This document shows positions 9,797-63,140 of a stretch of DNA of 64,000 nucleotides, piece after piece. The notes under the pieces were generated by a model that was not told the origin of the DNA, ran no database searches, and saw nothing but the letters and a program-made list of their open reading frames with translations. The DNA lies in the IMG/VR virus record IMGVR_UViG_3300028178_000001, positions 28,108 to 92,107 of that record; one strand, written 5' to 3'. Made by a program: the position numbers and the translations under genes. Numbering within the stretch: the first letter of the stretch is position 1; each line of letters begins with the position of its first letter. Source of the stretch: a virus.

Positions 9797-9846
9797 AGAC
9801 AAAAAAATAATTTGGATAATATAAAAAAACATATTAATTTTCCGCC

Positions 9847-10010
9847 GTCTAAAATTACGAACGGTAAACCCGCTCCGTCAACGCGGTACTTTTATTTTAA
9901 AGTACAGAGCGATTTAATTTCAAGCCAAGACTCCGCTTTTCGTGAGAGAGCGGGTATCTTTCGTAGATATAGACAAGTCTTGGCGTTTTTTATTTGTCTA
10001 AAATTACGAA
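9847..10010 (+). ncRNA. C4-antisense-like structured RNA/leader, copy A
   Basis: Stem GCCAAGACT(9924)/AGTCTTGGC(9984) encloses GAGCGGGT and TTCGTAGATATAGAC, complementary to ACCCGCTC (9868) and GTCTAAAATTACGAA (9847, 9996). Confidence 0.7.
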
Positions 10011-10018
10011 GGTTCACC

Positions 10019-10363
10019 ATGAACTCAACCCAACAAAACCCACTATTTGCGATCCGCAAAAAACCCGATCAGTCCTTCGCTTGTGTCCTTTCAGAAAAAC
10101 TTGATGTGCTTGCAGTTGTTGTTAAGTGCATCGCCGACACCAACAATTACAACTTGGAGAAGCTTAATCATAGTCGTCTTCCCCGCGCTCTTGAGTATGC
10201 GTTCGAGGATTTTAATGAAGTGTTTGAGCTTTATCACTACGAGAACTTTGAGCTAAATATTCCTACGGAGAAGAAGCTGCTGGAGTTATCGGAGAAGCTA
10301 AACGAAACGCCATACAATATTATTGAGAAGATGCTGAAAGGGGTGCAAGATGAATCCAATTAA
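10019..10363 (+). CDS. hypothetical protein under C4-like control (paralog of 57946-58284)
   Basis: QNPLF..RKKPDQS..LSEKL..YENFE..IP.EKKL.ELSEKL..IEKMLK shared with the second copy. Confidence 0.7.
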   Translation: MNSTQQNPLFAIRKKPDQSFACVLSEKLDVLAVVVKCIADTNNYNLEKLNHSRLPRALEYAFEDFNEVFELYHYENFELNIPTEKKLLELSEKLNETPYNIIEKMLKGVQDESN

Positions 10364-11006
10364 TATAAAGATTGGGGATCGGTTTGGAAGGTTGGTGGTT
10401 ACAGGAGAAGCTGACCGACACATAACCAGTACAGGCCAAATTAAAAGAATAATTAGATGCCAATGTGATTGTGGTAGGGATACGAAAGTATTTCTTTCGG
10501 CTTTAAGGAATAGTAAAATACCTACTAATAGTTGTGGGTGTTTACAAGCTGAGCGTGCAAAAAATGCTAATACACAACACGGATTAAGCCAACATTCTTT
10601 ATATGGGAAGTTAGAGGGGATGAAAAAACGATGTTATAATCCAAAAGTAAGTGGATACCACCGTTATGGTGGACGCGGAATAAAGATATGCGAAGAATGG
10701 CTGAATAATTTTATGTCATTTTATAATTGGGCGATGGCTAATGGATGGAAAGAGGGTTTACAAATAGATCGAATAAATAATGACGGCAACTATGAACCAA
10801 ATAATTGTAGATTTGTGACTTCAGCAGTGAACAATCGTAATCAAAGTACGACAAAACTAACGTGGGATGATGTTAATGAAATACGTAACACTAAGCTTCT
10901 AAACCCAAAAATTAAAATAAATGAATTAGCCGCAAGTTTCGGGATAAAAAAAACTACGGTTTCAAAAATATTAAACAACAAAATTTGGCAAATAAGATTA
11001 AAATAA
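10350..11006 (+). CDS. HNH-type homing endonuclease-like protein with C-terminal HTH
   Basis: Same motifs as 3740-4387 (CQCDCG, SCGC, YGGRGI, IDRINNDGNYEPNNCRFVT). Confidence 0.8.
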   Translation: MNPINIKIGDRFGRLVVTGEADRHITSTGQIKRIIRCQCDCGRDTKVFLSALRNSKIPTNSCGCLQAERAKNANTQHGLSQHSLYGKLEGMKKRCYNPKVSGYHRYGGRGIKICEEWLNNFMSFYNWAMANGWKEGLQIDRINNDGNYEPNNCRFVTSAVNNRNQSTTKLTWDDVNEIRNTKLLNPKIKINELAASFGIKKTTVSKILNNKIWQIRLK

Positions 11007-11024
11007 ATTCAAAGGAGAAATAGT

Positions 11025-18967: not shown

Positions 18968-20551
18968 ATGGAGTTTGTAGTAATTGATTTATTTAGCGGA
19001 GCGGGAGGAGTGACAACGGGGATTGAACAAGCAGTAGTTGATGGGATGAAAATAGCGACGGTTATTTGTGCAATTAACCATGACCGGCTTGCAATTGAGA
19101 GCCATTGGAGAAACCATCCGCACGTAAAACATTTTGTTGAAGACATTAGAACGTTTGATGTGAAGAGATTACCGGAAGTCCCGTCAGATCAATTCACAAA
19201 GAAATTTCTTTGGGCAAGTTTGGAATGTACAAATCATAGCAACGCGAAAGGAGGATTGAGCAGAGACGCAGACAGCAGGACACTTGCAGAACATCTTCCT
19301 CCGTACATTGTAGAATTTGATCCGGAATATATCGGGATTGAAAATGTAAGAGAGTTTAAGGATTGGGGACCACTGGTACAGAAGAAAAATGGCAAAGGCG
19401 AACTGATGTTTGATAAGAAGGGAAAACCTTACATGATACCGGATAAGGAGAAGAAGGGAATTGATTTTGAGAAGTGGTTAAGATCAATTTGTGAACTTGG
19501 TTATCACTATGAAATGAAAATGTTAAATGCTGCTGATTTTGGAGCGAACACTTCCAGAAAAAGATTGTTCATATTATTTGCAAAGGAAGGAATGCCGATT
19601 GTTTGGCCGGAACCAACACATGATAAGAACGGGAAGAATGGTTTGCCAAAATGGAGACCGGTAAAAGAGTGTTTGGATTTTTCGGATAAGGGAGAAAATA
19701 TTTTTGGGAGGAAAAAAGATTTGTGTGAGAACACGTATAGAAGAATATACGCAGGACTATTAAAGTTTATTGCCAACGGGGATGAATCATTTATAACAAA
19801 GTATTTTGGGAATAACGAACACACCGGAATTAATAACGGAAAGAGTGTAAACGAACCGAGCTTAACGGTAACAAAGCAAAACGCAGGCAACGGCATCGAT
19901 GAGCCTTGCTCAACAATTTTAGTTCGTTCCGGGTTAGGGCTTGTTTCGGTAGATCATTTTATTGATATGCAGCATGGCAGTGGTAAACAGAACGAATCTG
20001 TTAATAAACCATGCGGCGCAATATTGCCGGTTGTTAAAAAGAATCTTGTAACGGTTGAAAGGTTTATTGATCAGCAGTTTGGAGCGAGTGAACCGATTTC
20101 GGTTGATGATGCTTGCAACACTTTAACGGCGAATCCGAAGTTTAATTTGGTATCGGCTTTTTTAATGAACCGGCAGTATAACAATGTAGGGGGAGATATT
20201 GAGAAACCTTGTTTTACTTTAATTGCCAACATGAATAAAAGACCTGGTTATTTAATACAAGTTGAAACGGGAGAGCTTGCGATTAAAGTTGAGGAGGCAG
20301 ACACAGAGGACATGAAGAAAATAAAAATGTTTATGGCAGCATACGGGATAATTGCTATTTACATGAGAATGTTGAGAATTCCCGAGCTGAAAAGAATTAC
20401 CGGTTTTGATGAAGATTATATTCTTGAAGGAACGCAGGCAGATCAAAAGAAGTACATAGGGAACGCGGTGCCTTCGGTATTGCCTAAATCAATTTTTGAG
20501 GCATTGTATAGAGCAAATACTACTTATGAAGATATTAGGATAGCCGTTTGA
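18968..20551 (+). CDS. DNA (cytosine-5) methyltransferase
   Basis: DLFSGAGG, SLECTNHS (catalytic Cys), ENV, R.RLF, IGNAV; internal S(I/V)xEPCxTI repeats. Confidence 0.9.
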   Translation: MEFVVIDLFSGAGGVTTGIEQAVVDGMKIATVICAINHDRLAIESHWRNHPHVKHFVEDIRTFDVKRLPEVPSDQFTKKFLWASLECTNHSNAKGGLSRDADSRTLAEHLPPYIVEFDPEYIGIENVREFKDWGPLVQKKNGKGELMFDKKGKPYMIPDKEKKGIDFEKWLRSICELGYHYEMKMLNAADFGANTSRKRLFILFAKEGMPIVWPEPTHDKNGKNGLPKWRPVKECLDFSDKGENIFGRKKDLCENTYRRIYAGLLKFIANGDESFITKYFGNNEHTGINNGKSVNEPSLTVTKQNAGNGIDEPCSTILVRSGLGLVSVDHFIDMQHGSGKQNESVNKPCGAILPVVKKNLVTVERFIDQQFGASEPISVDDACNTLTANPKFNLVSAFLMNRQYNNVGGDIEKPCFTLIANMNKRPGYLIQVETGELAIKVEEADTEDMKKIKMFMAAYGIIAIYMRMLRIPELKRITGFDEDYILEGTQADQKKYIGNAVPSVLPKSIFEALYRANTTYEDIRIAV

Positions 20552-20593: not shown

Positions 20594-20737
20594 ATGTTAA
20601 GTTTGAAACTGAAATATAAAATTAAATACTACTACACAAAGTTTTGCCATTTGTTTGGCTTCTGCCCGAAGTGTTTTACAAATGTTAATTATACGCAAAG
20701 CGGAAAAGCTATTTGTCCGCGAGGATGCAAGTATTGA
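20594..20737 (+). CDS. small zinc-finger protein (47 aa, not in ORF track)
   Basis: MLSLKLKYKIKYYYTKFCHLFGFCPKC...ICPRGCKY. Confidence 0.5.
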   Translation: MLSLKLKYKIKYYYTKFCHLFGFCPKCFTNVNYTQSGKAICPRGCKY

Positions 20738-22566
20738 GAAACATAATATTACAAGGAAATGTACTTGAAAGGTTGAAAGATATGGAAACCGGAAGTGTAC
20801 ACTGCATGATAACTTCGCCACCTTATTACGGAGTTAGAAATTACGGAACAGAGCCGCAGATATGGAAACCGGAAGGATACACTGCATGCGGCGAACATGA
20901 ATTTTATGAAGGGAAAAAGAAACATAATTTAGGCGGATGCAGCAGCAAAAGCACATTGAGAGACATACCCGGACAAAAGGCAAAAGAGAATTGGGCAAAG
21001 GGAGCAAGTTGCGAGCATGAATTTGATACATGTACAATAATAAAAGATAAAGCTCAAAAAGATTTTTCAAAAAGTGGATTGAAGAATGACGGCAGACCGG
21101 AAGAAAAGAGAATAGCCACAAATGAAAAGTCTAAATATAATCTTCAACTAGCAACAAAAGTTTTAAGCGGTTTTTGTATTAAGTGCGGCGCATGGAAAGG
21201 GGAACTTGGACTTGAACCAACGCCGGAGCTTTACATAGAACATGTTGTACAAATCTTCCGTGAGATAAAAAGAGTATTGCGAAAGGACGGAACGGCTTGG
21301 CTTAACCTTGGAGATAGTTATTGGGGAAGTTGGGGAAATTACGGCGGGCAAAACCGGGGGAACGGAAAGCAGAGAGAAATTATTAACGGCAGTCAAGCGC
21401 CAAACCCCGCGTACGATGGATTAGAAGATTTTATACCACCGACAGCCACTAAACATAATTATTTAAAACCAAAAGATTTAATAGGCATACCGTGGAGAGT
21501 TGCAATAGCTTTGCAGCGAGACGGCTGGTGGTTAAGGAGCGATATAATTTGGAGCAAAAAGAACCCGATGCCCGAGAGTGTAACGGATAGACCAACCAAA
21601 GCGCATGAGTACATATTTTTACTAACGAAAAGTCAAAAGTATTATTATGATGCAGAAGCCATAAGAGAAGAAGCGGTACGATCAGGCGATACACAGATAT
21701 TTGGCGGACAAAAAGCATTGAATAACATTATTGGAGAGAATGACCCACGGTTTAGAAACGGGCATGAACAATGGGGAAGAACACACACACAATTATCGGG
21801 AAGGAATAAGCGTTCGGTTTGGGAAGTGACCACAACGCCATTTGCAGAGGCGCACTTTGCGACATTTCCCCAAAAGCTGATTGGGCCTTGCATACTTGCC
21901 GGAACGAGTGAGCACGGTGTTTGTGCGGAGTGCGGGAAGCCGTATGAAAGGATTTTGGAGAAAGTTTCTAAAAGAGATTTCTTGAAAGATGCAGACAAAC
22001 AATATCGAAGCAGAGCAACCGAACATCAAATAATGCCGAAAGATCAACCGAACCGAGGTTCGGTTGATACGCCAAGAGCCGCAAGCGCAACAAAATATGA
22101 CACGGAAAATTCGACTGCCGGAAGGTTGCCAACCTTCCGGCAAGGGGAACGGATGTATAACACAAAATACGCTGATGAATCTCACGGGCAGCAGCTTAAT
22201 GCATTTATGAGGGAACAAACCATAGTAGCGGAAAGAGATGAGAGTAGAGTGGAAGCGGAAGCGTTATATCCGGGTGATATTCAGGCACAAAAAGCGTACA
22301 TAAATTACGTTCACGAGCACGGACAGTTAAGAAAAACCAAAACAATTGGATGGAAGAAAACTTGCAAGTGTGAAACGGAGAAAGTTAAACCGGCGATAGT
22401 GCTTGATCCTTTCTTTGGTGCCGGAACAACGGGCTTAGTTGCATTGAGGAGCGGAAGAAATTTTATAGGGATAGAGTTAAACGAAGAATACATAAAGATC
22501 GCAGAGAAAAGATTAGCACCGTTTATGCAAAACTTGTTCAATCAGCAAGAAGAGGAGGCAGCGTAA
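20725..22566 (+). CDS. DNA N6-adenine/N4-cytosine methyltransferase (beta class) with insertions
   Basis: TSPPY, LGLEPTP, LNLGDSY, IIWSK.NPMPES..DRPT..HEY, HFATFP, DPFFGAGTTG, GIELN. Confidence 0.9.
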   Translation: MQVLRNIILQGNVLERLKDMETGSVHCMITSPPYYGVRNYGTEPQIWKPEGYTACGEHEFYEGKKKHNLGGCSSKSTLRDIPGQKAKENWAKGASCEHEFDTCTIIKDKAQKDFSKSGLKNDGRPEEKRIATNEKSKYNLQLATKVLSGFCIKCGAWKGELGLEPTPELYIEHVVQIFREIKRVLRKDGTAWLNLGDSYWGSWGNYGGQNRGNGKQREIINGSQAPNPAYDGLEDFIPPTATKHNYLKPKDLIGIPWRVAIALQRDGWWLRSDIIWSKKNPMPESVTDRPTKAHEYIFLLTKSQKYYYDAEAIREEAVRSGDTQIFGGQKALNNIIGENDPRFRNGHEQWGRTHTQLSGRNKRSVWEVTTTPFAEAHFATFPQKLIGPCILAGTSEHGVCAECGKPYERILEKVSKRDFLKDADKQYRSRATEHQIMPKDQPNRGSVDTPRAASATKYDTENSTAGRLPTFRQGERMYNTKYADESHGQQLNAFMREQTIVAERDESRVEAEALYPGDIQAQKAYINYVHEHGQLRKTKTIGWKKTCKCETEKVKPAIVLDPFFGAGTTGLVALRSGRNFIGIELNEEYIKIAEKRLAPFMQNLFNQQEEEAA

Positions 22567-35084: not shown

Positions 35085-35393
35085 ATGTTAATATTTTACA
35101 CAGAGAGAGAAGGAGGGAACTGGATACCGTTGAGGGTAAAAACTACACGGGGCAAATTATTGAAGCGGTTGAAAAAATTTGCATTTAAGAAATTAGCAGA
35201 GATTATAATTGAAGGGGAAAAGTTTCTTATGGCTAGTGTGTTGTTCCCAAACGATTTGGTTTACTGCCCTATTCTTAACCAAACAGATAGAATTAAATCA
35301 AAAGGGAAAACTTGGTTTTTTAAAAGTGGTAAACTCACCAAAGTAACTACGAATTATCATAAATGGTTGAAAGGACAATTAGGGATTAAATGA
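35085..35393 (+). CDS. hypothetical protein
   Basis: 102 aa, GAGG upstream. Confidence 0.55.
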   Translation: MLIFYTEREGGNWIPLRVKTTRGKLLKRLKKFAFKKLAEIIIEGEKFLMASVLFPNDLVYCPILNQTDRIKSKGKTWFFKSGKLTKVTTNYHKWLKGQLGIK

Positions 35394-37111
35394 GCGGCAG
35401 GATAGGACAGTGCGATAGTTTGGAGTTTATGAAAAAGCAAGAAGATTTTTCTGCTGATATTATCTATTGTGATCCGCCGTATGCGTTGGGGAGTGAAGTT
35501 ATTATACGCAAAGACGGGAAACCGGATTATAAAAAAGCCGTAGATTTTATGAATAAATGGGATATGCCAAACGGCGATTATTGGGAGGCTTGGTTTAAGG
35601 AAGCATTTAGAGTATTAAAGTACGGCGGGCGTGTAATAATGTTTGGAATGGACCGCCAATTAATGCTGAATAAATATTATGCTTGTTACGCCGGATTTGA
35701 GGAACAGCAAAGTTTGTATTGGTATTTTATTTCGAACTTTCCGAAAGCTACTGATTTAAGCAAAATGATTGACCGAAACGCAGGAGCGGGAAGGGAAGTT
35801 GTTGGAATAACTTCTATCCCAAATGGGAAAGAAAGTGCATACCAAGGTGAACGATATAAAGAAAAAAGGGAAACTGCTTTTGGGGTTATTCAAGACCAAC
35901 CGGATAAAACCGCGCCATTCACAGAGCTTGCAAAAAAATATGAGGGATACAAATATTCTATTTCACCATTAAAGCAAACGAACGAAACGATAATGGTTTT
36001 TCAAAAGCCATATAAAACCGGAAGTTGTTTGCACGACACTTTTGCGTATGAAAATGGAGATAGGGAATGTTTATGCGGGGCTTTGAATATTGAGGGAAAT
36101 AGAGTTGGATTCGCTTCAAATGAAGATGAAGCGGAGAGTAAAAATAAAAATCAACATGAAGATTTTGGCACAAAGCCAATGACGGGTAATAATGTTTACG
36201 GCGATTTTTCTATGATCGGACAAAAGAATTATAATCCTCCCGGTCGTTATCCTTCGCAAACTTTTATTGAGTGCATTTGTGATGAAGTAGTTATTAAAAA
36301 GAATGAGGCGCAGCCATATTCTTACAGCGGAAAAGAATACCAGAACAAAGAAACATCGATGTTTAACGGAGACAAACCACAAGCGCCAAGTAATTATAAT
36401 GATAAAGGAAGCGGCCAGATACACACGAATCCGAATTGTCCGTGTGCAAGATTAGATTTACAAAGCGGAGAATTGCAAAAAGGGAAAGGGGACTATGTAC
36501 GCAAAAACGGAGCGGAACAATTTTTAAGCGCAATGGGGCAAGATAAAACAGACCCGCCAAATAAAATATCAGATACCGGCGGATGCAGCAAGATTTTACA
36601 CAAGTGTGAGTTTGATGAAGAAGAGCATGATATTTATTTTTATTTCCCGAAGGTGAGTAAGGCTGAACGAAACGGCGGACTGGAGGAGCTATCACTAAAA
36701 GGAAGGGAACCAAAGGGCAATAATCAAGGAGTGAGATATTGTAAAGATTGTGGTTTAACAGATAATGGGACCAATAATCATAACAATTGCTCTGGTATAT
36801 TTGAATATAAACTTTGTCAGTCTGTTAAGAATAACCATCCCACATTAAAACCAATTGCGTTAAACAAAAGAATTTTATCTCTGTTCAAGACACCGAACGG
36901 GCAGAAAATACTTTATCCTTTTGCCGGAACCTTTTCAGAAGTAATAGGGGGATATTTAGCGGGGTTTACAAATTTTGAAGGTTGCGAGTTAAAAGAAGAA
37001 TGGATAACCATAGGCGAAGCAAGGTTTAGTTACTGGACAAATAGAGAGAAGAAAGAAGCTGCTGAAAATGAAGATCAGTTTAATTTATTCACCCAGACCG
37101 AGGCAGCATAA
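35390..37111 (+). CDS. DNA N6/N4 methyltransferase (beta class)
   Basis: CDPPY, RVLK.GG, FPK, GRYP, NNHPTLKP, variant motif I YPFAGTFS, GCEL. Confidence 0.82.
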   Translation: MSGRIGQCDSLEFMKKQEDFSADIIYCDPPYALGSEVIIRKDGKPDYKKAVDFMNKWDMPNGDYWEAWFKEAFRVLKYGGRVIMFGMDRQLMLNKYYACYAGFEEQQSLYWYFISNFPKATDLSKMIDRNAGAGREVVGITSIPNGKESAYQGERYKEKRETAFGVIQDQPDKTAPFTELAKKYEGYKYSISPLKQTNETIMVFQKPYKTGSCLHDTFAYENGDRECLCGALNIEGNRVGFASNEDEAESKNKNQHEDFGTKPMTGNNVYGDFSMIGQKNYNPPGRYPSQTFIECICDEVVIKKNEAQPYSYSGKEYQNKETSMFNGDKPQAPSNYNDKGSGQIHTNPNCPCARLDLQSGELQKGKGDYVRKNGAEQFLSAMGQDKTDPPNKISDTGGCSKILHKCEFDEEEHDIYFYFPKVSKAERNGGLEELSLKGREPKGNNQGVRYCKDCGLTDNGTNNHNNCSGIFEYKLCQSVKNNHPTLKPIALNKRILSLFKTPNGQKILYPFAGTFSEVIGGYLAGFTNFEGCELKEEWITIGEARFSYWTNREKKEAAENEDQFNLFTQTEAA

Positions 37112-45452: not shown

Positions 45453-45491
45453 AACCTCACCCCTTGCCCCTCTCCTTATGAAGGAGAGGGG
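45453..45491 (+). repeat. REP-like hairpin repeat (copies at 46256-46290 and 58283-58321)
   Basis: AACCTCACCCCTT.CCCCTCTCCTT-N3-AAGGAGAGGGG. Confidence 0.7.
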
Positions 45492-46325: not shown

Positions 46326-46369
46326 TCTTTAAATTTCAACCCTTCGGAGAGAAACGCATTCCTTAAATA
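46326..46369 (+). promoter_or_regulatory. putative late promoter upstream of head operon
   Basis: TCTTTAAA.TTCAACCCTTCGGAGAGAAA..CCTTAAATA, near-identical to 58339-58382. Confidence 0.65.
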
Positions 46370-46394
46370 TGCAATAAAAAAAGAGTAAATAATT

Positions 46395-56993: not shown

Positions 56994-57119
56994 GCTTACA
57001 AAAGGAATTTAGCAAAATGAAATTAAGAACCCTTGTTACAGATGTGAACGTTTTCCCTCAAAAGAATTCCGTTGTAAGCACACGTTTGAGCAAGGGTTCT
57101 GTTATTATTGGAGTTTGTG
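56994..57119 (+). promoter_or_regulatory. antisense hairpin leader of HNH gene
   Basis: GCTTACAAAAGGAATT (56994) is near-complementary to AATTCCGTTGTAAGC (57065-57079), which lies within stem AGAACCCTTG/CAAGGGTTCT. Confidence 0.55.
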
Positions 57120-57749
57120 ATGCCATATAAAGACAAACAAAAACAAAAGGAATACTATGCAGAATATCACTCCGAACACAGAGACAAGAGAAACAAGCAA
57201 AACGCATTATACAAAGTAGAACATAAACAAGAATTAGAAGAACAAGGTAAACAGTATAGGCTTGAACACAAAGAAGAAATAAAAGCGAAAAAAACAAAAT
57301 ACCGTTTTGATAACATAGAAGAAATTAGAAAATATAAGGCTGTATATTCATTTACGAATAAAGATAGAATTAGAACACATCGGAGGGAATATAAAAAACG
57401 CAGAAAATTAATTGATCCATCATTCAAAACAAAATGTTATTTAAGGAAAAGAATCTGGTATGCTTTTAATAGAATGGGCTTAAACAAACCATGTAAGACC
57501 GAAGAATTGCTTGGTGCAGACTTTGAAACAGTAATGCGGCATATAGAATCGCAGTTTATCTTTGGCATGAGTTGGGAAAATTACGGTGAATGGCATATTG
57601 ATCACAAAAAACCACTAGCTTTGGCAAAAACCGAGAAGCAATTGATTAAACTTTGCCATTACACGAACTTGCAACCACTGTGGGCAGAAGAAAACCGGAG
57701 GAAACAAGCAAAAACCGATTACAAAATAAAAGAAGTACGATTTGGATAA
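57120..57749 (+). CDS. HNH endonuclease-like protein with charged repeats
   Basis: ELLG...HIESQF..GMSWENYGEWHIDHKKP..CHYTNLQPLWAEEN..K. Confidence 0.8.
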   Translation: MPYKDKQKQKEYYAEYHSEHRDKRNKQNALYKVEHKQELEEQGKQYRLEHKEEIKAKKTKYRFDNIEEIRKYKAVYSFTNKDRIRTHRREYKKRRKLIDPSFKTKCYLRKRIWYAFNRMGLNKPCKTEELLGADFETVMRHIESQFIFGMSWENYGEWHIDHKKPLALAKTEKQLIKLCHYTNLQPLWAEENRRKQAKTDYKIKEVRFG

Positions 57750-57776
57750 TTCAGAGAAAGGTAGTAGTTTTCCGCC

Positions 57777-57940
57777 GTCTAATAATCCAGGCGGTAAACC
57801 CGCTCCGTAATTGCGGTATTCTTATTTTAAAGAGTACAAGCGAATTAATAATAGCCAAGACTCCGCTTTTCGTGAGAGAGCGGGTATCTCCTGGAGATAT
57901 AGACAAGTCTTGGCATCTTTTCTGTCTAAAAATTCAGGAG
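57777..57940 (+). ncRNA. C4-antisense-like structured RNA/leader, copy B
   Basis: Same scaffold as 9847-10010, with CCTGGAGATATAGAC (57890) complementary to GTCTAATAATCCAGG (57777) and GTCTAAAAATTCAGG (57924). Confidence 0.7.
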
Positions 57941-57945
57941 TTCCT

Positions 57946-58284
57946 ATGTCCACATCCCAAAACCCACTATTCTTGCATCGCAAGAAGCCCGACCAATCAT
58001 ACGGTTGGTTACTTTCCGATAAACTTCAAGTATTGGAAGCTGTTGTAAGATGCATCAGCCTCACCAACGAACAAGGGATAAATGACCTTGGCACAACATT
58101 ACTACCCTTAACTCTTGCGAATGTTTTTGAGGAGTTTAGAGAGATTTACAACCACTACTTTTATGAGAACTTTGAATTTTCTATTCCGGTAGAAAAGAAA
58201 CTGATTGAGTTGTCAGAAAAACTTCACACCACCCCCAACATGTTAATAGAGAAGATGCTGAAGAGTATCGAGATAACCTCTTAA
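57946..58284 (+). CDS. hypothetical protein under C4-like control (paralog of 10019-10363)
   Basis: AGGAG RBS; clear similarity to copy A protein. Confidence 0.7.
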   Translation: MSTSQNPLFLHRKKPDQSYGWLLSDKLQVLEAVVRCISLTNEQGINDLGTTLLPLTLANVFEEFREIYNHYFYENFEFSIPVEKKLIELSEKLHTTPNMLIEKMLKSIEITS

Positions 58285-58338
58285 CCTCACCCCTTACCCC
58301 TCTCCTTAAAAAGGAGAGGGGTTTTCTATTTTAAACAA

Positions 58339-58382
58339 TCTTTAAAATTCAACCCTTCGGAGAGAAAACTTTCCCTTAAATA
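58339..58382 (+). promoter_or_regulatory. putative late promoter upstream of tail operon
   Basis: Near-identical to 46326-46369. Confidence 0.65.
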
Positions 58383-58426
58383 ACGGCTGTATTTAACAAA
58401 GTATTTCTCTTAGTATAAACATCAAC

Positions 58427-62684: not shown

Positions 62685-63140
62685 ATGGACAGCAGAGAGA
62701 AAGTATCTTTTGAAGTAGAAGATAAAACATTTGAGTTTTACGCAGAACCCACCGCGATAGAAAGCAGGCAAATACGAAACGTAATGGGGGATTTGTTGGG
62801 CGGACTTAATAACCTTTTAGATCTTGAAAATTTGATAAGCCGCGAGTATAGTGCATACTATGACAAACTCGATAAGTTACCTGGCAGAAAAGAAGCTGAG
62901 GGGAAGAAGGATGAAGTATTTGAAGCGATGGTTCGTGACCAAAAGTTTTATGTAAAACTCATCAGCGTGATCAATGAAAAGAAAAACTTACAGCAGCTTG
63001 CATTCTTAAAGGTAATGTGTGTTAAACCGTATGGATATGATTTCTATTCACAGAAGGAAGAATTTTTAAGAAAGATCGTTATAGAGTTAGATGCAAAGCT
63101 TGATGGAGTAAAAAAAAAGTCAGTCACTACCGAAGCCTAA
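62685..63140 (+). CDS. tail assembly chaperone (G)
   Basis: Between tube and tape measure; ends in slippery A AAA AAG (63113-63119). Confidence 0.7.
   Translation: MDSREKVSFEVEDKTFEFYAEPTAIESRQIRNVMGDLLGGLNNLLDLENLISREYSAYYDKLDKLPGRKEAEGKKDEVFEAMVRDQKFYVKLISVINEKKNLQQLAFLKVMCVKPYGYDFYSQKEEFLRKIVIELDAKLDGVKKKSVTTEA

What the first reader, a model, noticed from the sequence alone, without database searches (positions are those of the whole stretch)
9811..10020. Two paralogous C4-like antisense modules with compensatory changes, suggesting orthogonal RNA switches
Seen: copy A (9811-10020) and copy B (57741-57948) share a scaffold (TTTGGATAAT..TTTTCCGCCGTCTA..CGGTAAACCCGCTCCGT..GCCAAGACTCCGCTTTTCGTGAGAGAGCGGGTATCT..AGATATAGACAAGTCTTGGC) and precede paralogous ~113-aa ORFs. 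The specificity bases co-vary at three places: A has target TACGAA / loop TTCGTA / target TACGAA; B has TCCAGG / CCTGGA / TTCAGG, the last overlapping the AGGAG RBS. This is within-genome covariation evidence for base pairing. Inference: two independently addressed antisense switches controlling an uncharacterised protein family (antirepressor, exclusion or toxin).
Basis: partly seen in the sequence, partly recalled or inferred. Interest (0 to 1): 0.75.

Follow-up and report, generated by a model that had tools for sequence, protein, structure and literature searches.

The report
Two address-coded c4-like RNA switches
A 92-kb lake-water phage carries two copies of a small folded RNA, built like the c4 immunity RNA of coliphage P1 but belonging to an uncatalogued family; each copy's two exposed 'key' segments match two 'locks' beside it, one on the ribosome-binding site of the next gene, so it most likely switches that gene off, and relatives carry about ten different key-lock codes.

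Summary
Both copies have the same parts in the same order:
- a promoter-like box;
- an upstream target (T1);
- a small hairpin followed by a U-rich box;
- a 61-nt three-way-junction RNA followed by a U-run;
- a second target (T2) abutting the Shine-Dalgarno sequence and ATG of a 112-114-aa orphan ORF.

The hairpin loop (A TTCGTA, B CCTGGA) and a single-stranded joint (TAGAC in both) pair with both targets. This is the topology and target order of P1 c4 (a1b1 - c4 - a2b2 - gene).

Rfam's C4 and c4-a1b1 models hit P1 but not this RNA, and my model does not hit P1. I therefore file it as a functional analogue from an uncatalogued family, not as a member of C4.

I found 10 more copies: 2 on metagenome contigs and 8 in genomes of the class and order of an Ignavibacteriaceae MAG. 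Across 12 distinct sequences, 97% of pair cells pair and 18 of 24 pairs show compensatory changes. About ten different addresses co-vary with their targets.

In this phage both modules sit in accessory cassettes next to HNH-type nuclease genes. Cassette A (RNA + ORF + HNH) is precisely absent from a collinear relative.

No transcript data exist, so trans-repression is inferred. This scan has noted similar uncatalogued c4-like switches on other DNA before.

The parts
9811..9842 (+). Module A promoter-like region: TTTG (9811-9814), a 20-nt spacer, then TAATTTTC (9835-9842). This resembles the Bacteroidota -33/-7 type.
   Evidence: Read directly. It is conserved in all four close copies, and the only variable bases are the two 'nn' of TAnnTTT. 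Homology in four metagenome contigs begins at 9802-9806. The strict consensus is not enriched elsewhere in the window, so its function is inferred.
9847..9861 (+). Module A upstream target T1 (a1 GTCTA, b1 TACGAA), displayed in a hairpin closed by CCG/CGG.
9870..9902 (+). Second small hairpin (CCGC..GCGG, 9870-9886) and the near-invariant box TTTTATTTTAAAG (9890-9902). Role unknown.
   Evidence: Conserved in A, B, L003 and L004, with recognisable versions in L023-L029. The stem shows no covariation.
9924..9984 (+). Module A small RNA, 61 nt, a three-way junction. Closing stem 9924-9932/9976-9984. Hairpin 1 at 9933-9953 with a GUGA loop. Hairpin 2 at 9954-9970, whose loop carries b' TTCGTA (9960-9965). 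Single-stranded joint a' TAGAC at 9970-9974.
   Evidence: Fold z-score -3.4. Covariation. CM score 75.8-85 bits.
9985..9995 (+). U-run after the closing stem (GTTTTTTATTT). Probably a partial intrinsic terminator that makes the 3' end of the RNA.
   Evidence: A U-run follows the closing stem in most of the 12 copies but is weak in L021 and L028. Function is inferred.
9996..10018 (+). Module A downstream target T2 (a2 GTCTA 9996-10000, b2 TACGAA 10005-10010), running into the SD-like GAAGG (10008-10012) ahead of ATG 10019.
10019..10363 (+). ORF A, 114 aa: an acidic, all-helical orphan protein ('ORF113').
   Evidence: Differences from ORF B fall mostly on third codon positions (36/28/68). No Pfam, PHROG or PADLOC match. 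AF2 pLDDT 63 with six helices. No fold match. Only 6 clusters among 5.8 billion proteins.
10350..11006 (+). HNH endonuclease gene (218 aa, with a C-terminal HTH) that overlaps the end of ORF A by 14 nt. It is probably translationally coupled to ORF A and is part of cassette A.
   Evidence: phrog_374, E = 1.5e-61. The whole stretch of about 9797-11010 is absent from the collinear relative G001:C1.
57108..57749 (+). HNH/endonuclease VII-like gene (213 aa) that ends at the promoter of module B.
   Evidence: phrog_1035, E = 8.5e-09, and phrog_28061, E = 9e-11. The same arrangement occurs in L003 and in L024, where the upstream gene matches Pfam HNH at E = 3.8e-07.
57741..57772 (+). Module B promoter-like region: TTTG (57741-57744), a 20-nt spacer, then TAGTTTTC (57765-57772).
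57777..57791 (+). Module B upstream target T1 (GTCTA / TCCAGG) in the hairpin CCGCC..GGCGG.
57854..57914 (+). Module B small RNA, 61 nt. Loop b' CCTGGA at 57890-57895; joint a' TAGAC at 57900-57904.
57924..57945 (+). Module B downstream target T2 (GTCTA / TTCAGG, with one G-U pair) overlapping SD AGGAG (57936-57940) ahead of ATG 57946.
57946..58284 (+). ORF B, 112 aa, a paralogue of ORF A (55% identity).
58296..58322 (+). Strong intrinsic terminator that closes cassette B.
   Evidence: It is conserved at the right edge of the slot in L003 and in the relative phage.

Best explanation
Each module is a self-contained, address-coded antisense-RNA switch of the P1 c4 / P4 CI kind.

Proposed sequence of events:
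1. A promoter at the left edge of the module starts a transcript that holds, in order, T1, a small hairpin with a U-rich box, the 61-nt three-way-junction RNA, a U-run, T2 and the cargo gene.
2. The U-run probably ends a share of the transcripts, so the small RNA is made in excess over the read-through mRNA.
3. The RNA's single-stranded joint (a') and hairpin-2 loop (b') pair with the two halves of T2. This covers about positions -23 to -8, including the Shine-Dalgarno sequence, and blocks translation of ORF113. In cassette A it also blocks the overlapping HNH nuclease gene that depends on ORF113 translation.
4. T1 is an upstream copy of the lock. It probably occupies the key in cis on the nascent transcript, or acts as a decoy. 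The first transcripts would then be translated and later ones silenced.

The net effect would be a short pulse of cargo protein on entry into a naive cell, and silence in a cell that already holds the cognate RNA.

A and B differ in 5 of 6 loop bases, so each RNA should govern mainly its own gene.

What is shown: the fold, the bipartite complementarity and its covariation, the cassette boundaries, and the far stronger conservation of the leader than of the ORF.

What is inferred: the transcription start, termination, processing, action in trans, and the translational block.
For: Anatomy and exclusivity of the targets:
-.

Fold:
- z-scores of -3.4 and -2.8.
- On 4, 6 and 12 distinct sequences, 100%, 98.6% and 97.1% of cells pair, and 9, 13 and 18 pairs change on both sides.
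- 0 of 500 shuffles reach the covariation score, and slid controls pair in at most 51% of cells.

Key-lock covariation:
- Loop/joint and matching targets are TTCGTA/TAGAC (A), CCTGGA/TAGAC (B, L003), CCGTA/CTGATA (L004) and GCATAACG/TGAC (L021), with further addresses in L023-L029.
- Mean duplex energy is -14.8 (T1) and -13.8 (T2) kcal/mol for cognate pairs, against -8.3 and -7.4 for non-cognate pairs.
- The cognate is the best partner in 10 of 12 rows for T1 and 7 of 12 for T2.

Position of T2:
- T2 abuts GGAG and the start codon in 10 of 12 copies.

Same topology and target order as annotated P1 immI:
- In P1, b' lies in the hairpin-2 loop, a' lies in the joint, and b2 lies on the icd SD.

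Leader conservation compared with the ORF:
- In drinking-water, sludge and groundwater contigs the leader shows 4-6 differences in about 220-230 nt, and none of those listed for these three lies inside the RNA or its targets.
- In the aquatic contig the leader shows 8 differences whose positions were not listed.
- In the drinking-water and aquatic contigs, which reach past the start codon, the ORF falls to about 84% nucleotide identity or below the 80% alignment floor.
- P0006 has the same leader translation as A with only 71% ORF identity.

Modularity:
- L003 joins a B-type leader (94.6%) to an A-type ORF (86%) at the start codon.

Published background:
- c4 is a trans-acting RNA that blocks the ant RBS and sets P1/P7 heteroimmunity (PMC8546580, PMC12197685).
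Against: - No RNA evidence: no listed sequencing run is on record as RNA.
- The Rfam C4 clan models give nothing at E <= 10, and my model finds nothing in P1. Homology with c4 is therefore unproven, and the likeness may be convergent.
- A and B share the joint element. The A RNA scores -8.7 kcal/mol on B's T1, so cross-talk is not excluded.
- In B the MFE fold closes the loop to 3 nt, which would slow a loop-first contact.
- L022/L023 and L028 have T1 but no clear T2.
- The promoter reading is weak: the strict Bacteroidota consensus is not enriched in the window.
- The 3' tail is a U-run, not the ACC-type tail of P1 c4, so RNase P-type processing cannot be assumed.
Confidence: 0.7

Rival explanations
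1. A purely cis-acting leader switch. The key segment pairs within the same transcript with either T1 (gene ON) or T2 (gene OFF), or it modulates the U-run terminator. No diffusible RNA is involved and there is no immunity function.
For: T1, the RNA and T2 always lie on one strand within about 170 nt behind a single promoter-like box, and no conserved internal promoter exists. The U-run directly follows the closing stem. Copies that have T1 but no T2 (L023, L028) show that T1 pairing alone is maintained.
Against: The compact, very stable three-way junction (-24 to -42 kcal/mol) with exposed loop and joint is the design of a stand-alone RNA, as in P1 c4, where action in trans is established (PMC8546580). 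A cis switch needs mutually exclusive folds, and none was found that disrupts the junction. The two readings are not exclusive.
Confidence: 0.2
2. A type I toxin-antitoxin-like addiction module. ORF113 would be a toxin and the RNA its antitoxin, stabilising the selfish cassette.
For: An RNA that blocks the RBS of a small orphan ORF inside a mobile cassette. The cargoes differ and are mostly orphans in the other copies.
Against: ORF113 is acidic and hydrophilic: pI 4.9-5.3, GRAVY -0.2 to -0.5, maximum 19-residue hydropathy 1.0-1.7. That is unlike the short membrane peptides of type I systems. There is no PADLOC or Pfam match. The RNA is co-transcribed on the same strand rather than antisense or divergent. 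One relative's cargo is a RadC-like JAB protein.
Confidence: 0.08
3. The 'leader' is coding. The true protein would be 183 aa, as gene callers predict from TTG 9812, and the complementarities would be incidental.
For: The frame is open from 9812 to the ATG in A (69 codons). It is also open in P0006 and L004, and databases hold the long form.
Against: B and L003 have an in-frame TAA in the leader, and the frame across the RNA differs between B and L003. A and L004 differ by frame-breaking indels. The RNA is identical at all three codon positions between A and B, whereas the ORF changes mostly at third positions. Stems change by compensatory pairs.
Confidence: 0.01

Closest known systems
immI operon of phages P1/P7: P1c4 promoter - a1 b1 - c4 RNA (77 nt) - a2 b2 - icd - ant1/2 (Rfam C4 RF01695, c4-a1b1 RF03163, clan CL00128)
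   Same: - The order of parts is the same: promoter, upstream target copy, RNA, downstream target at the RBS, then the gene.
- The RNA topology is the same: a closing stem, hairpin 1 with a tetraloop, hairpin 2 whose loop is one recognition element, and a single-stranded joint that is the other.
- The 5'-to-3' order of target halves is the same, with the loop's target next to the SD (searches compared with 17, 64, 86).
- In both, specificity changes by matched changes of key and locks. For P1 versus P7 heteroimmunity see PMC12197685, citing Citron and Schuster 1990.
   Different: - There is no sequence- or CM-level similarity in either direction.
- This RNA is shorter: 61-64 nt against 77, with a closing stem of 9-10 bp against 17.
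- Hairpin 1 ends in a GNRA-type loop instead of UUCG.
- The recognition loop has 5-8 nt instead of 12.
- Both target halves are 3-6 nt apart, whereas a2 and b2 are 22 nt apart in P1.
- A U-run replaces the ACC-like 3' tail.
- The cargo is an orphan 113-aa protein (plus HNH), unrelated to Icd.
- The host range is Ignavibacteriales-type genomes and their phages, whereas Rfam's C4 is described for Proteobacteria (PMC2864571).
Satellite phage P4 immunity: seqA - CI RNA (seqB) - seqC in the leader of the early operon (from my own knowledge; not tested here)
   Same: A target - antisense - target layout within one leader transcript. The module sits at the head of the early operon of an integrative element, as in L025, L027 and L028, where it follows integrase, excisionase-type or HTH genes.
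   Different: P4 CI acts mainly by premature transcription termination. Here T2 lies after the U-run and on the RBS. No sequence comparison was made.
Translational control of phage homing endonuclease genes by RBS-sequestering hairpins (I-TevI, segB, mobE; Edgell et al. 2010, PMC2988022)
   Same: Nuclease genes of mobile cassettes are kept nearly silent by RNA pairing over their RBS and by translational coupling to an upstream ORF. Here HNH overlaps ORF A by 14 nt.
   Different: In those cases a local hairpin in cis does the job and carries no address. Here a separate structured RNA with duplicated, co-varying targets does it, and the RBS under direct control belongs to ORF113, not to the nuclease.

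Membership tests
Rfam C4 antisense RNA (RF01695) | Scores at or above the family's gathering score (45 bits) with the covariance model | tested here: not met
   No C4 match in the window at gathering. None at E <= 10 on 400-nt stretches around A and B. The positive control, P1, scores 68.8 bits.
Rfam C4 antisense RNA (RF01695) | Three-way junction: closing stem, tetraloop hairpin, recognition hairpin, single-stranded joint | tested here: met
   for this RNA. for P1.
Rfam C4 antisense RNA (RF01695) | Two exposed elements (a', b') complementary to a2 and b2 on the mRNA, with b2 at the RBS of the first gene | tested here: met
   P1 annotation.
Rfam c4-a1b1 (RF03163) | An upstream copy of both targets in the same leader, and a match to the model | tested here: inconclusive
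   An upstream bipartite copy is present in all 12 copies. The RF03163 model gives no match, whereas P1 scores 51 bits.
P1-type immI system | The RNA is processed from the operon transcript (RNase P 5' end, 77 nt) and represses in trans, giving immunity | not testable with these tools
   No RNA run is listed. The 3' flank is a U-run, not the ACC tail seen in P1.
P1-type immI system | The cargo is icd followed by the antirepressor ant | tested here: not met
   hhalign of ORF113 against P1 Icd gives probability 0.2%. No Pfam or PHROG match. The downstream gene in A is an HNH nuclease.
Free-standing homing endonuclease cassette | A nuclease gene of an HNH or GIY-YIG family in an intergenic insertion that is present or absent between otherwise collinear phage genomes | tested here: met
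   HNH by phrog_374, E = 1.5e-61. Window positions of about 9797-11010 have no counterpart between the two flanking genes of G001:C1, where L020 825 joins to 834. Slot B holds other genes in the relative.
Free-standing homing endonuclease cassette | The nuclease cuts the cassette-less allele and the cassette is copied in | not testable with these tools
   Needs a cleavage assay or a cross.
Type I toxin-antitoxin | A small hydrophobic or membrane toxin peptide repressed by an antisense RNA | tested here: not met
   ORF113 is acidic and hydrophilic. No PADLOC match.

The most novel reading that the evidence does not exclude
The RNA is a portable private off-switch that travels with selfish nuclease or early-gene cassettes of Ignavibacteriales phages and integrative elements. 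Each cassette carries its own key-lock code, so several can coexist in one genome without cross-repression (A and B here). Recombination at the start codon re-assigns codes to cargo alleles (L003). The resident RNA also silences the homologous cassette of an incoming competitor, giving cassette-level immunity. This natural set of about ten orthogonal codes would be a c4-like regulatory system outside the Proteobacteria, possibly evolved independently of c4.
Probability: 0.3. Interest if true: 0.75.

Novelty: new variant of a known kind. Interest (0 to 1): 0.6.

Why it matters
- It adds an uncatalogued structured-RNA family with unusually clean covariation. The family works on the c4 principle (a key in a loop plus a joint, duplicated locks, one on the RBS) in a bacterial lineage and in phages where no such regulator is described.
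- It shows that the principle is used for accessory cassettes next to homing-type nucleases and for the early operons of integrative elements, not only for antirepressors.
- The roughly ten natural addresses on one scaffold form a ready-made test set for RNA-RNA specificity rules and for orthogonal translational switches.
- It corrects database entries that translate the leader as an N-terminal extension (the 183-186-aa 'proteins').

Tried and rejected

The Logan/ENA contigs of P0004-P0006 and the X8 variant contig could therefore not be fetched.

**Searches for relatives that found nothing or little**
- Exact or IUPAC pattern scans for the scaffold found nothing in viral contigs, genome contigs or metagenome contigs.
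- The ORF-based scan found nothing in viral contigs or genome contigs, and 2 loci in metagenomes.
- blastn against the phage collection gave no match.
- The profile search of 1.8 billion representatives returned only the window's own two proteins.
- The related phage contig in the MAG holds no copy of the RNA, the leader or the ORF.

**ORF113 function**
- ESM Atlas gave no usable hit.
- The AF2 model has pLDDT 63. Foldseek against PDB and BFVD gave nothing at E <= 0.001.
- Icd comparison was negative. PADLOC was negative.

**RNA evidence**
- No RNA holder was listed among the sequencing runs.

**Promoter and cross-model tests**
- The Bacteroidota promoter consensus TTTG-N18-21-TAnnTTTG gave 2 matches against 2.4 expected, so it is not enriched.
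- My CM R1 on P1 immI gave nothing.

**Papers**
- Citron & Schuster 1992 and Heinrich 1994 are not held.

**Alignment problem**
- The CM-fitted alignment of L004 hairpin 1 was off by one register. I replaced it with the MAFFT alignment and the L004-type structure.

**Readings rejected**
- A coding leader; a chance inverted repeat or plain terminator; an assembly duplicate (the copies differ and lie 48 kb apart).
Full report
**1. What is there**

The window is bases 28108-92107 of a 92,107-bp IMG/VR virus record that CheckV rates complete. Almost all genes lie on the + strand. The genome encodes a helicase, an SbcC-like protein, terminase, portal, a capsid protease, a major capsid protein and several DNA methyltransferases.

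They have the same parts in the same order.

Module A:
- TTTG at 9811-9814 and TAATTTTC at 9835-9842, 20 nt apart.
- T1 GTCTAAAATTACGAA at 9847-9861, inside a hairpin.
- A small hairpin CCGC..GCGG at 9870-9886, followed by the box TTTTATTTTAAAG at 9890-9902.
- A 61-nt RNA at 9924-9984.
- A U-run at 9985-9995.
- T2 GTCTAAAATTACGAA at 9996-10010.
- GAAGG, then ATG at 10019.

Module B has the same parts at 57741-57945, with T1 GTCTAATAATCCAGG and T2 GTCTAAAAATTCAGG, the latter running into AGGAG.

The ORFs are 114 and 112 aa and share 55% of residues. The whole genome holds exactly two scaffolds and exactly four bipartite targets, all in these modules. About 0.0002-0.0006 such target matches are expected by chance within 150 nt of each RNA.

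**2. The RNA fold**

Both RNAs fold into a three-way junction (z-scores -3.4 and -2.8):
- a 9-bp closing stem;
- hairpin 1 with a GUGA-type loop;
- a 6-bp hairpin 2 with a 5-nt loop;
- a 5-nt single-stranded joint.

The variable hexamer (A TTCGTA, B CCTGGA) is the hairpin-2 loop plus one base. The invariant TAGAC is the joint. Pairing with each target is therefore bipartite: the joint pairs with GTCTA and the loop pairs with TACGAA (A), TCCAGG (B, T1) or TTCAGG (B, T2).

**3. Relatives**

*The protein family is tiny.* It has 6 clusters among 5.8 billion proteins and 2 at the 50% level.

*Two metagenome loci were informative*:
- L003 lies at locus B of a related phage. It has a B-type leader (94.6% identical) in front of an A-type ORF (86% nucleotide, 93% residue identity), so it is a recombinant with its breakpoint at the start codon. 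It also carries a compensatory A-U to G-C change in the closing stem.
- L004 sits at a third site, equivalent to about window position 20740, behind the terminase and methyltransferase region. Its stems are rewritten by compensatory changes and it has a third address: loop CCGTA with two TACGG targets, and joint CTGATA with targets ATCAG and TATCA.

*Covariance-model searches found eight more copies.* A model built from these sequences was used to search 151 genomes of the class, and another 151 of the order, of a MAG titled Ignavibacteriaceae. That MAG holds a phage contig with 88% capsid identity to this phage. The searches found copies in 3 and 6 genomes. All of them keep T1, the second hairpin with its U-rich box, the junction RNA and a U-run, which is weak in two of them. 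All but L022/L023 and L028 also keep T2 abutting GGAG and the start codon.

**4. Covariation**

| Alignment | Distinct sequences | Cells paired | Pairs changed on both sides |
|---|---|---|---|
| MAFFT | 4 | 100% of 94 | 9 |
| MAFFT | 6 | 98.6% | 13 |
| Model-fitted | 12 | 97.1% of 277 | 18 of 24 (72 cells) |

For the 12-sequence alignment the covariation score is 0.729, against 0.249 in shuffles (0 of 500 reach it). Slid controls pair in at most 51% of cells. The model-fitted alignment leans towards the structure, but the MAFFT alignments give the same answer.

About ten addresses exist between molecules. Mean duplex energy of the key segment with its own T1 is -14.8 kcal/mol, against -8.3 for other copies' T1. 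For T2 the figures are -13.8 and -7.4. The cognate is the best partner in 10 of 12 rows for T1 and 7 of 12 for T2. For A versus B, cognate duplexes are -11.2 to -13.9 and cross duplexes -5.7 to -8.7. The residue of cross-pairing comes from the shared joint element.

**5. The leader is under stronger constraint than the gene, and it is not coding**

Contigs of four studies (aquatic, groundwater, sludge and drinking water) hold the A-type leader, positions 9802-10033, with 4-8 differences. For the groundwater, sludge and drinking-water contigs, the differences listed lie at 9838, 9913 and 9985, all outside the RNA and its targets. The positions of the 8 differences in the aquatic contig were not listed.

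In the drinking-water and aquatic contigs, which extend past the start codon, the ORF drops to about 84% identity or below the 80% alignment floor. Homology begins sharply at 9802-9806, behind three different upstream sequences.

One sludge contig keeps the flanks but replaces 117 nt. Both of its targets diverge at the same base, after GTCTAAAATTAC. That points to a further address, but the loop could not be seen.

Gene callers translate the leader because the frame is open: the database forms are 183-186 aa. That reading fails for three reasons:
- B and L003 have an in-frame stop.
- The frame across the RNA differs between B and L003.
- The RNA is identical at all codon positions between A and B, whereas the ORFs differ mostly at third positions (36/28/68).

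**6. Comparison with c4**

The annotated P1 record gives the following order: promoter P1c4, a1, b1, the 77-nt c4 RNA, a2, b2 on the icd SD, icd, then ant.

P1 c4 folds into the same topology. By the Rfam consensus and the P1 sequence, b' lies in the hairpin-2 loop and a' in the joint, and the targets run a then b towards the gene. In that nomenclature, the joint TAGAC here is a' and the loop is b'.

Rfam C4 and c4-a1b1 hit P1 at 68.8 and 51 bits. They give nothing here even at E <= 10. My model gives nothing in P1. So this RNA works like c4 but is not a demonstrable member of that family, and whether it is a distant homologue or convergent is open.

Further differences:
- It is shorter.
- Hairpin 1 ends in a GNRA-type loop.
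- The two target halves sit closer together.
- A U-run replaces the ACC tail.
- The cargo is unrelated to Icd.

**7. Context**

A collinear relative (G001:C1) lacks the stretch from about 9797 to 11010 exactly. Its two flanking genes are 9 bp apart. Module A, ORF A and the overlapping HNH gene (phrog_374, E = 1.5e-61) therefore form one accessory cassette.

Slot B holds four unrelated small genes in the relative, between conserved flanks and a conserved terminator. In this phage and in L003, slot B holds an HNH/EndoVII-like gene followed by the module. L024 also has an HNH gene directly upstream of its module.

In other genomes the module follows a tyrosine integrase (L028), excisionase-type HTH genes (L025) or an HTH gene (L027). 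There it precedes orphan ORFs or a RadC-like JAB protein. That is the head of an early operon of an integrative element, as with P4 CI (from my own knowledge).

ORF113 is acidic and helical, and no sequence or fold relative was found.

**8. Mechanism**

The best-supported reading is an RNA repressor of translation that is co-transcribed with its target, as in P1. There, c4 acts in trans, blocks the RBS region and sets P1/P7 heteroimmunity (PMC8546580, PMC12197685).

The U-run suggests that most transcripts stop after the RNA. T1 may hold the key in cis or act as a decoy. The HNH gene of cassette A would be silenced through loss of translational coupling. This fits the known need to keep phage homing nucleases at very low levels by RNA structure and coupling (PMC2988022).

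All of this is inference. No RNA data could be found.

**9. Host**

The evidence is indirect:
- The relative sits in an Ignavibacteriaceae-titled MAG.
- Copies of the RNA occur in 9 of 302 sampled genomes of that class and order.
- The promoter-like boxes fit the Bacteroidota -33/-7 type, including a perfect TACATTTG in L023. That motif is not enriched in the window, however.

**10. Standing**

The concept (c4-type, address-coded, heteroimmune RNAs) is known. What is not described in the papers I could search is this RNA family, its lineage, its link with HNH cassettes and the two differently coded copies in one phage.

Earlier notes of this scan report other uncatalogued c4-like switches, several before homing nucleases and in Bacteroidota phages, and tandem orthogonal c4 arrays in E. 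coli prophages. Those are unchecked leads. I did not test whether any is the same family.

Noticed in passing
window 9812-10363; L004 1411-1926: Public protein collections hold 183-186-aa 'proteins' (P0001, P0006) whose first ~70 residues are the translated RNA leader. This is an annotation artefact of a frame that happens to be open.
   Followed up: yes
window 45454-45491, 46326-46370 and 58285-58410; L003 2447-2546: The terminator-plus-downstream element that closes slot B (CCTCACCCCTTACCCCTCTCC..GGAGAGGGG and the sequence after it) has 82-92% identical partial copies at two other intergenic places in the window. It is a repeated terminator/promoter-like punctuation element.
   Followed up: no
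window 18968-20551, 20713-22566, 35390-37111: Three DNA methyltransferase ORFs span 500-600 aa but cover only about 230-290 positions of their PHROG profiles. They may carry large insertions such as inteins or nested domains.
   Followed up: no
L004 1071-1274: A 67-aa fragment with the N-terminal motif of a C5 cytosine methyltransferase (FSGIGG) lies just upstream of the third insertion site of the module. The insertion may have truncated the gene.
   Followed up: no
L018 7926-9443 (relative phage, slot B): The slot that holds HNH + module B in this phage holds four unrelated small genes (192, 158, 63 and 80 aa) in the relative. It is a hot spot for accessory genes.
   Followed up: partly
L023 1501-1600, L022 1501-1561 (minus strand), L028 1501-1590: These copies keep T1 and the RNA but have no recognisable T2 before the next ORF. 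They may be decayed, or they may be regulated through T1 only.
   Followed up: partly
L021 1640-1700 (minus strand): Upstream of T1 lies GCATAACG, a copy of the RNA's own loop sequence. It can pair with T1 in cis, making a built-in mimic of the key.
   Followed up: no
window 9890-9902, 57820-57832: The box TTATTTTAAAG between T1 and the RNA is invariant in the four close copies and recognisable in the distant ones, although it is not part of any supported helix. It could be a processing site or a protein-binding site.
   Followed up: no
window 62789-62871: A tRNA-Ser (anticodon TGA) gene lies near the right end of the genome.
   Followed up: no
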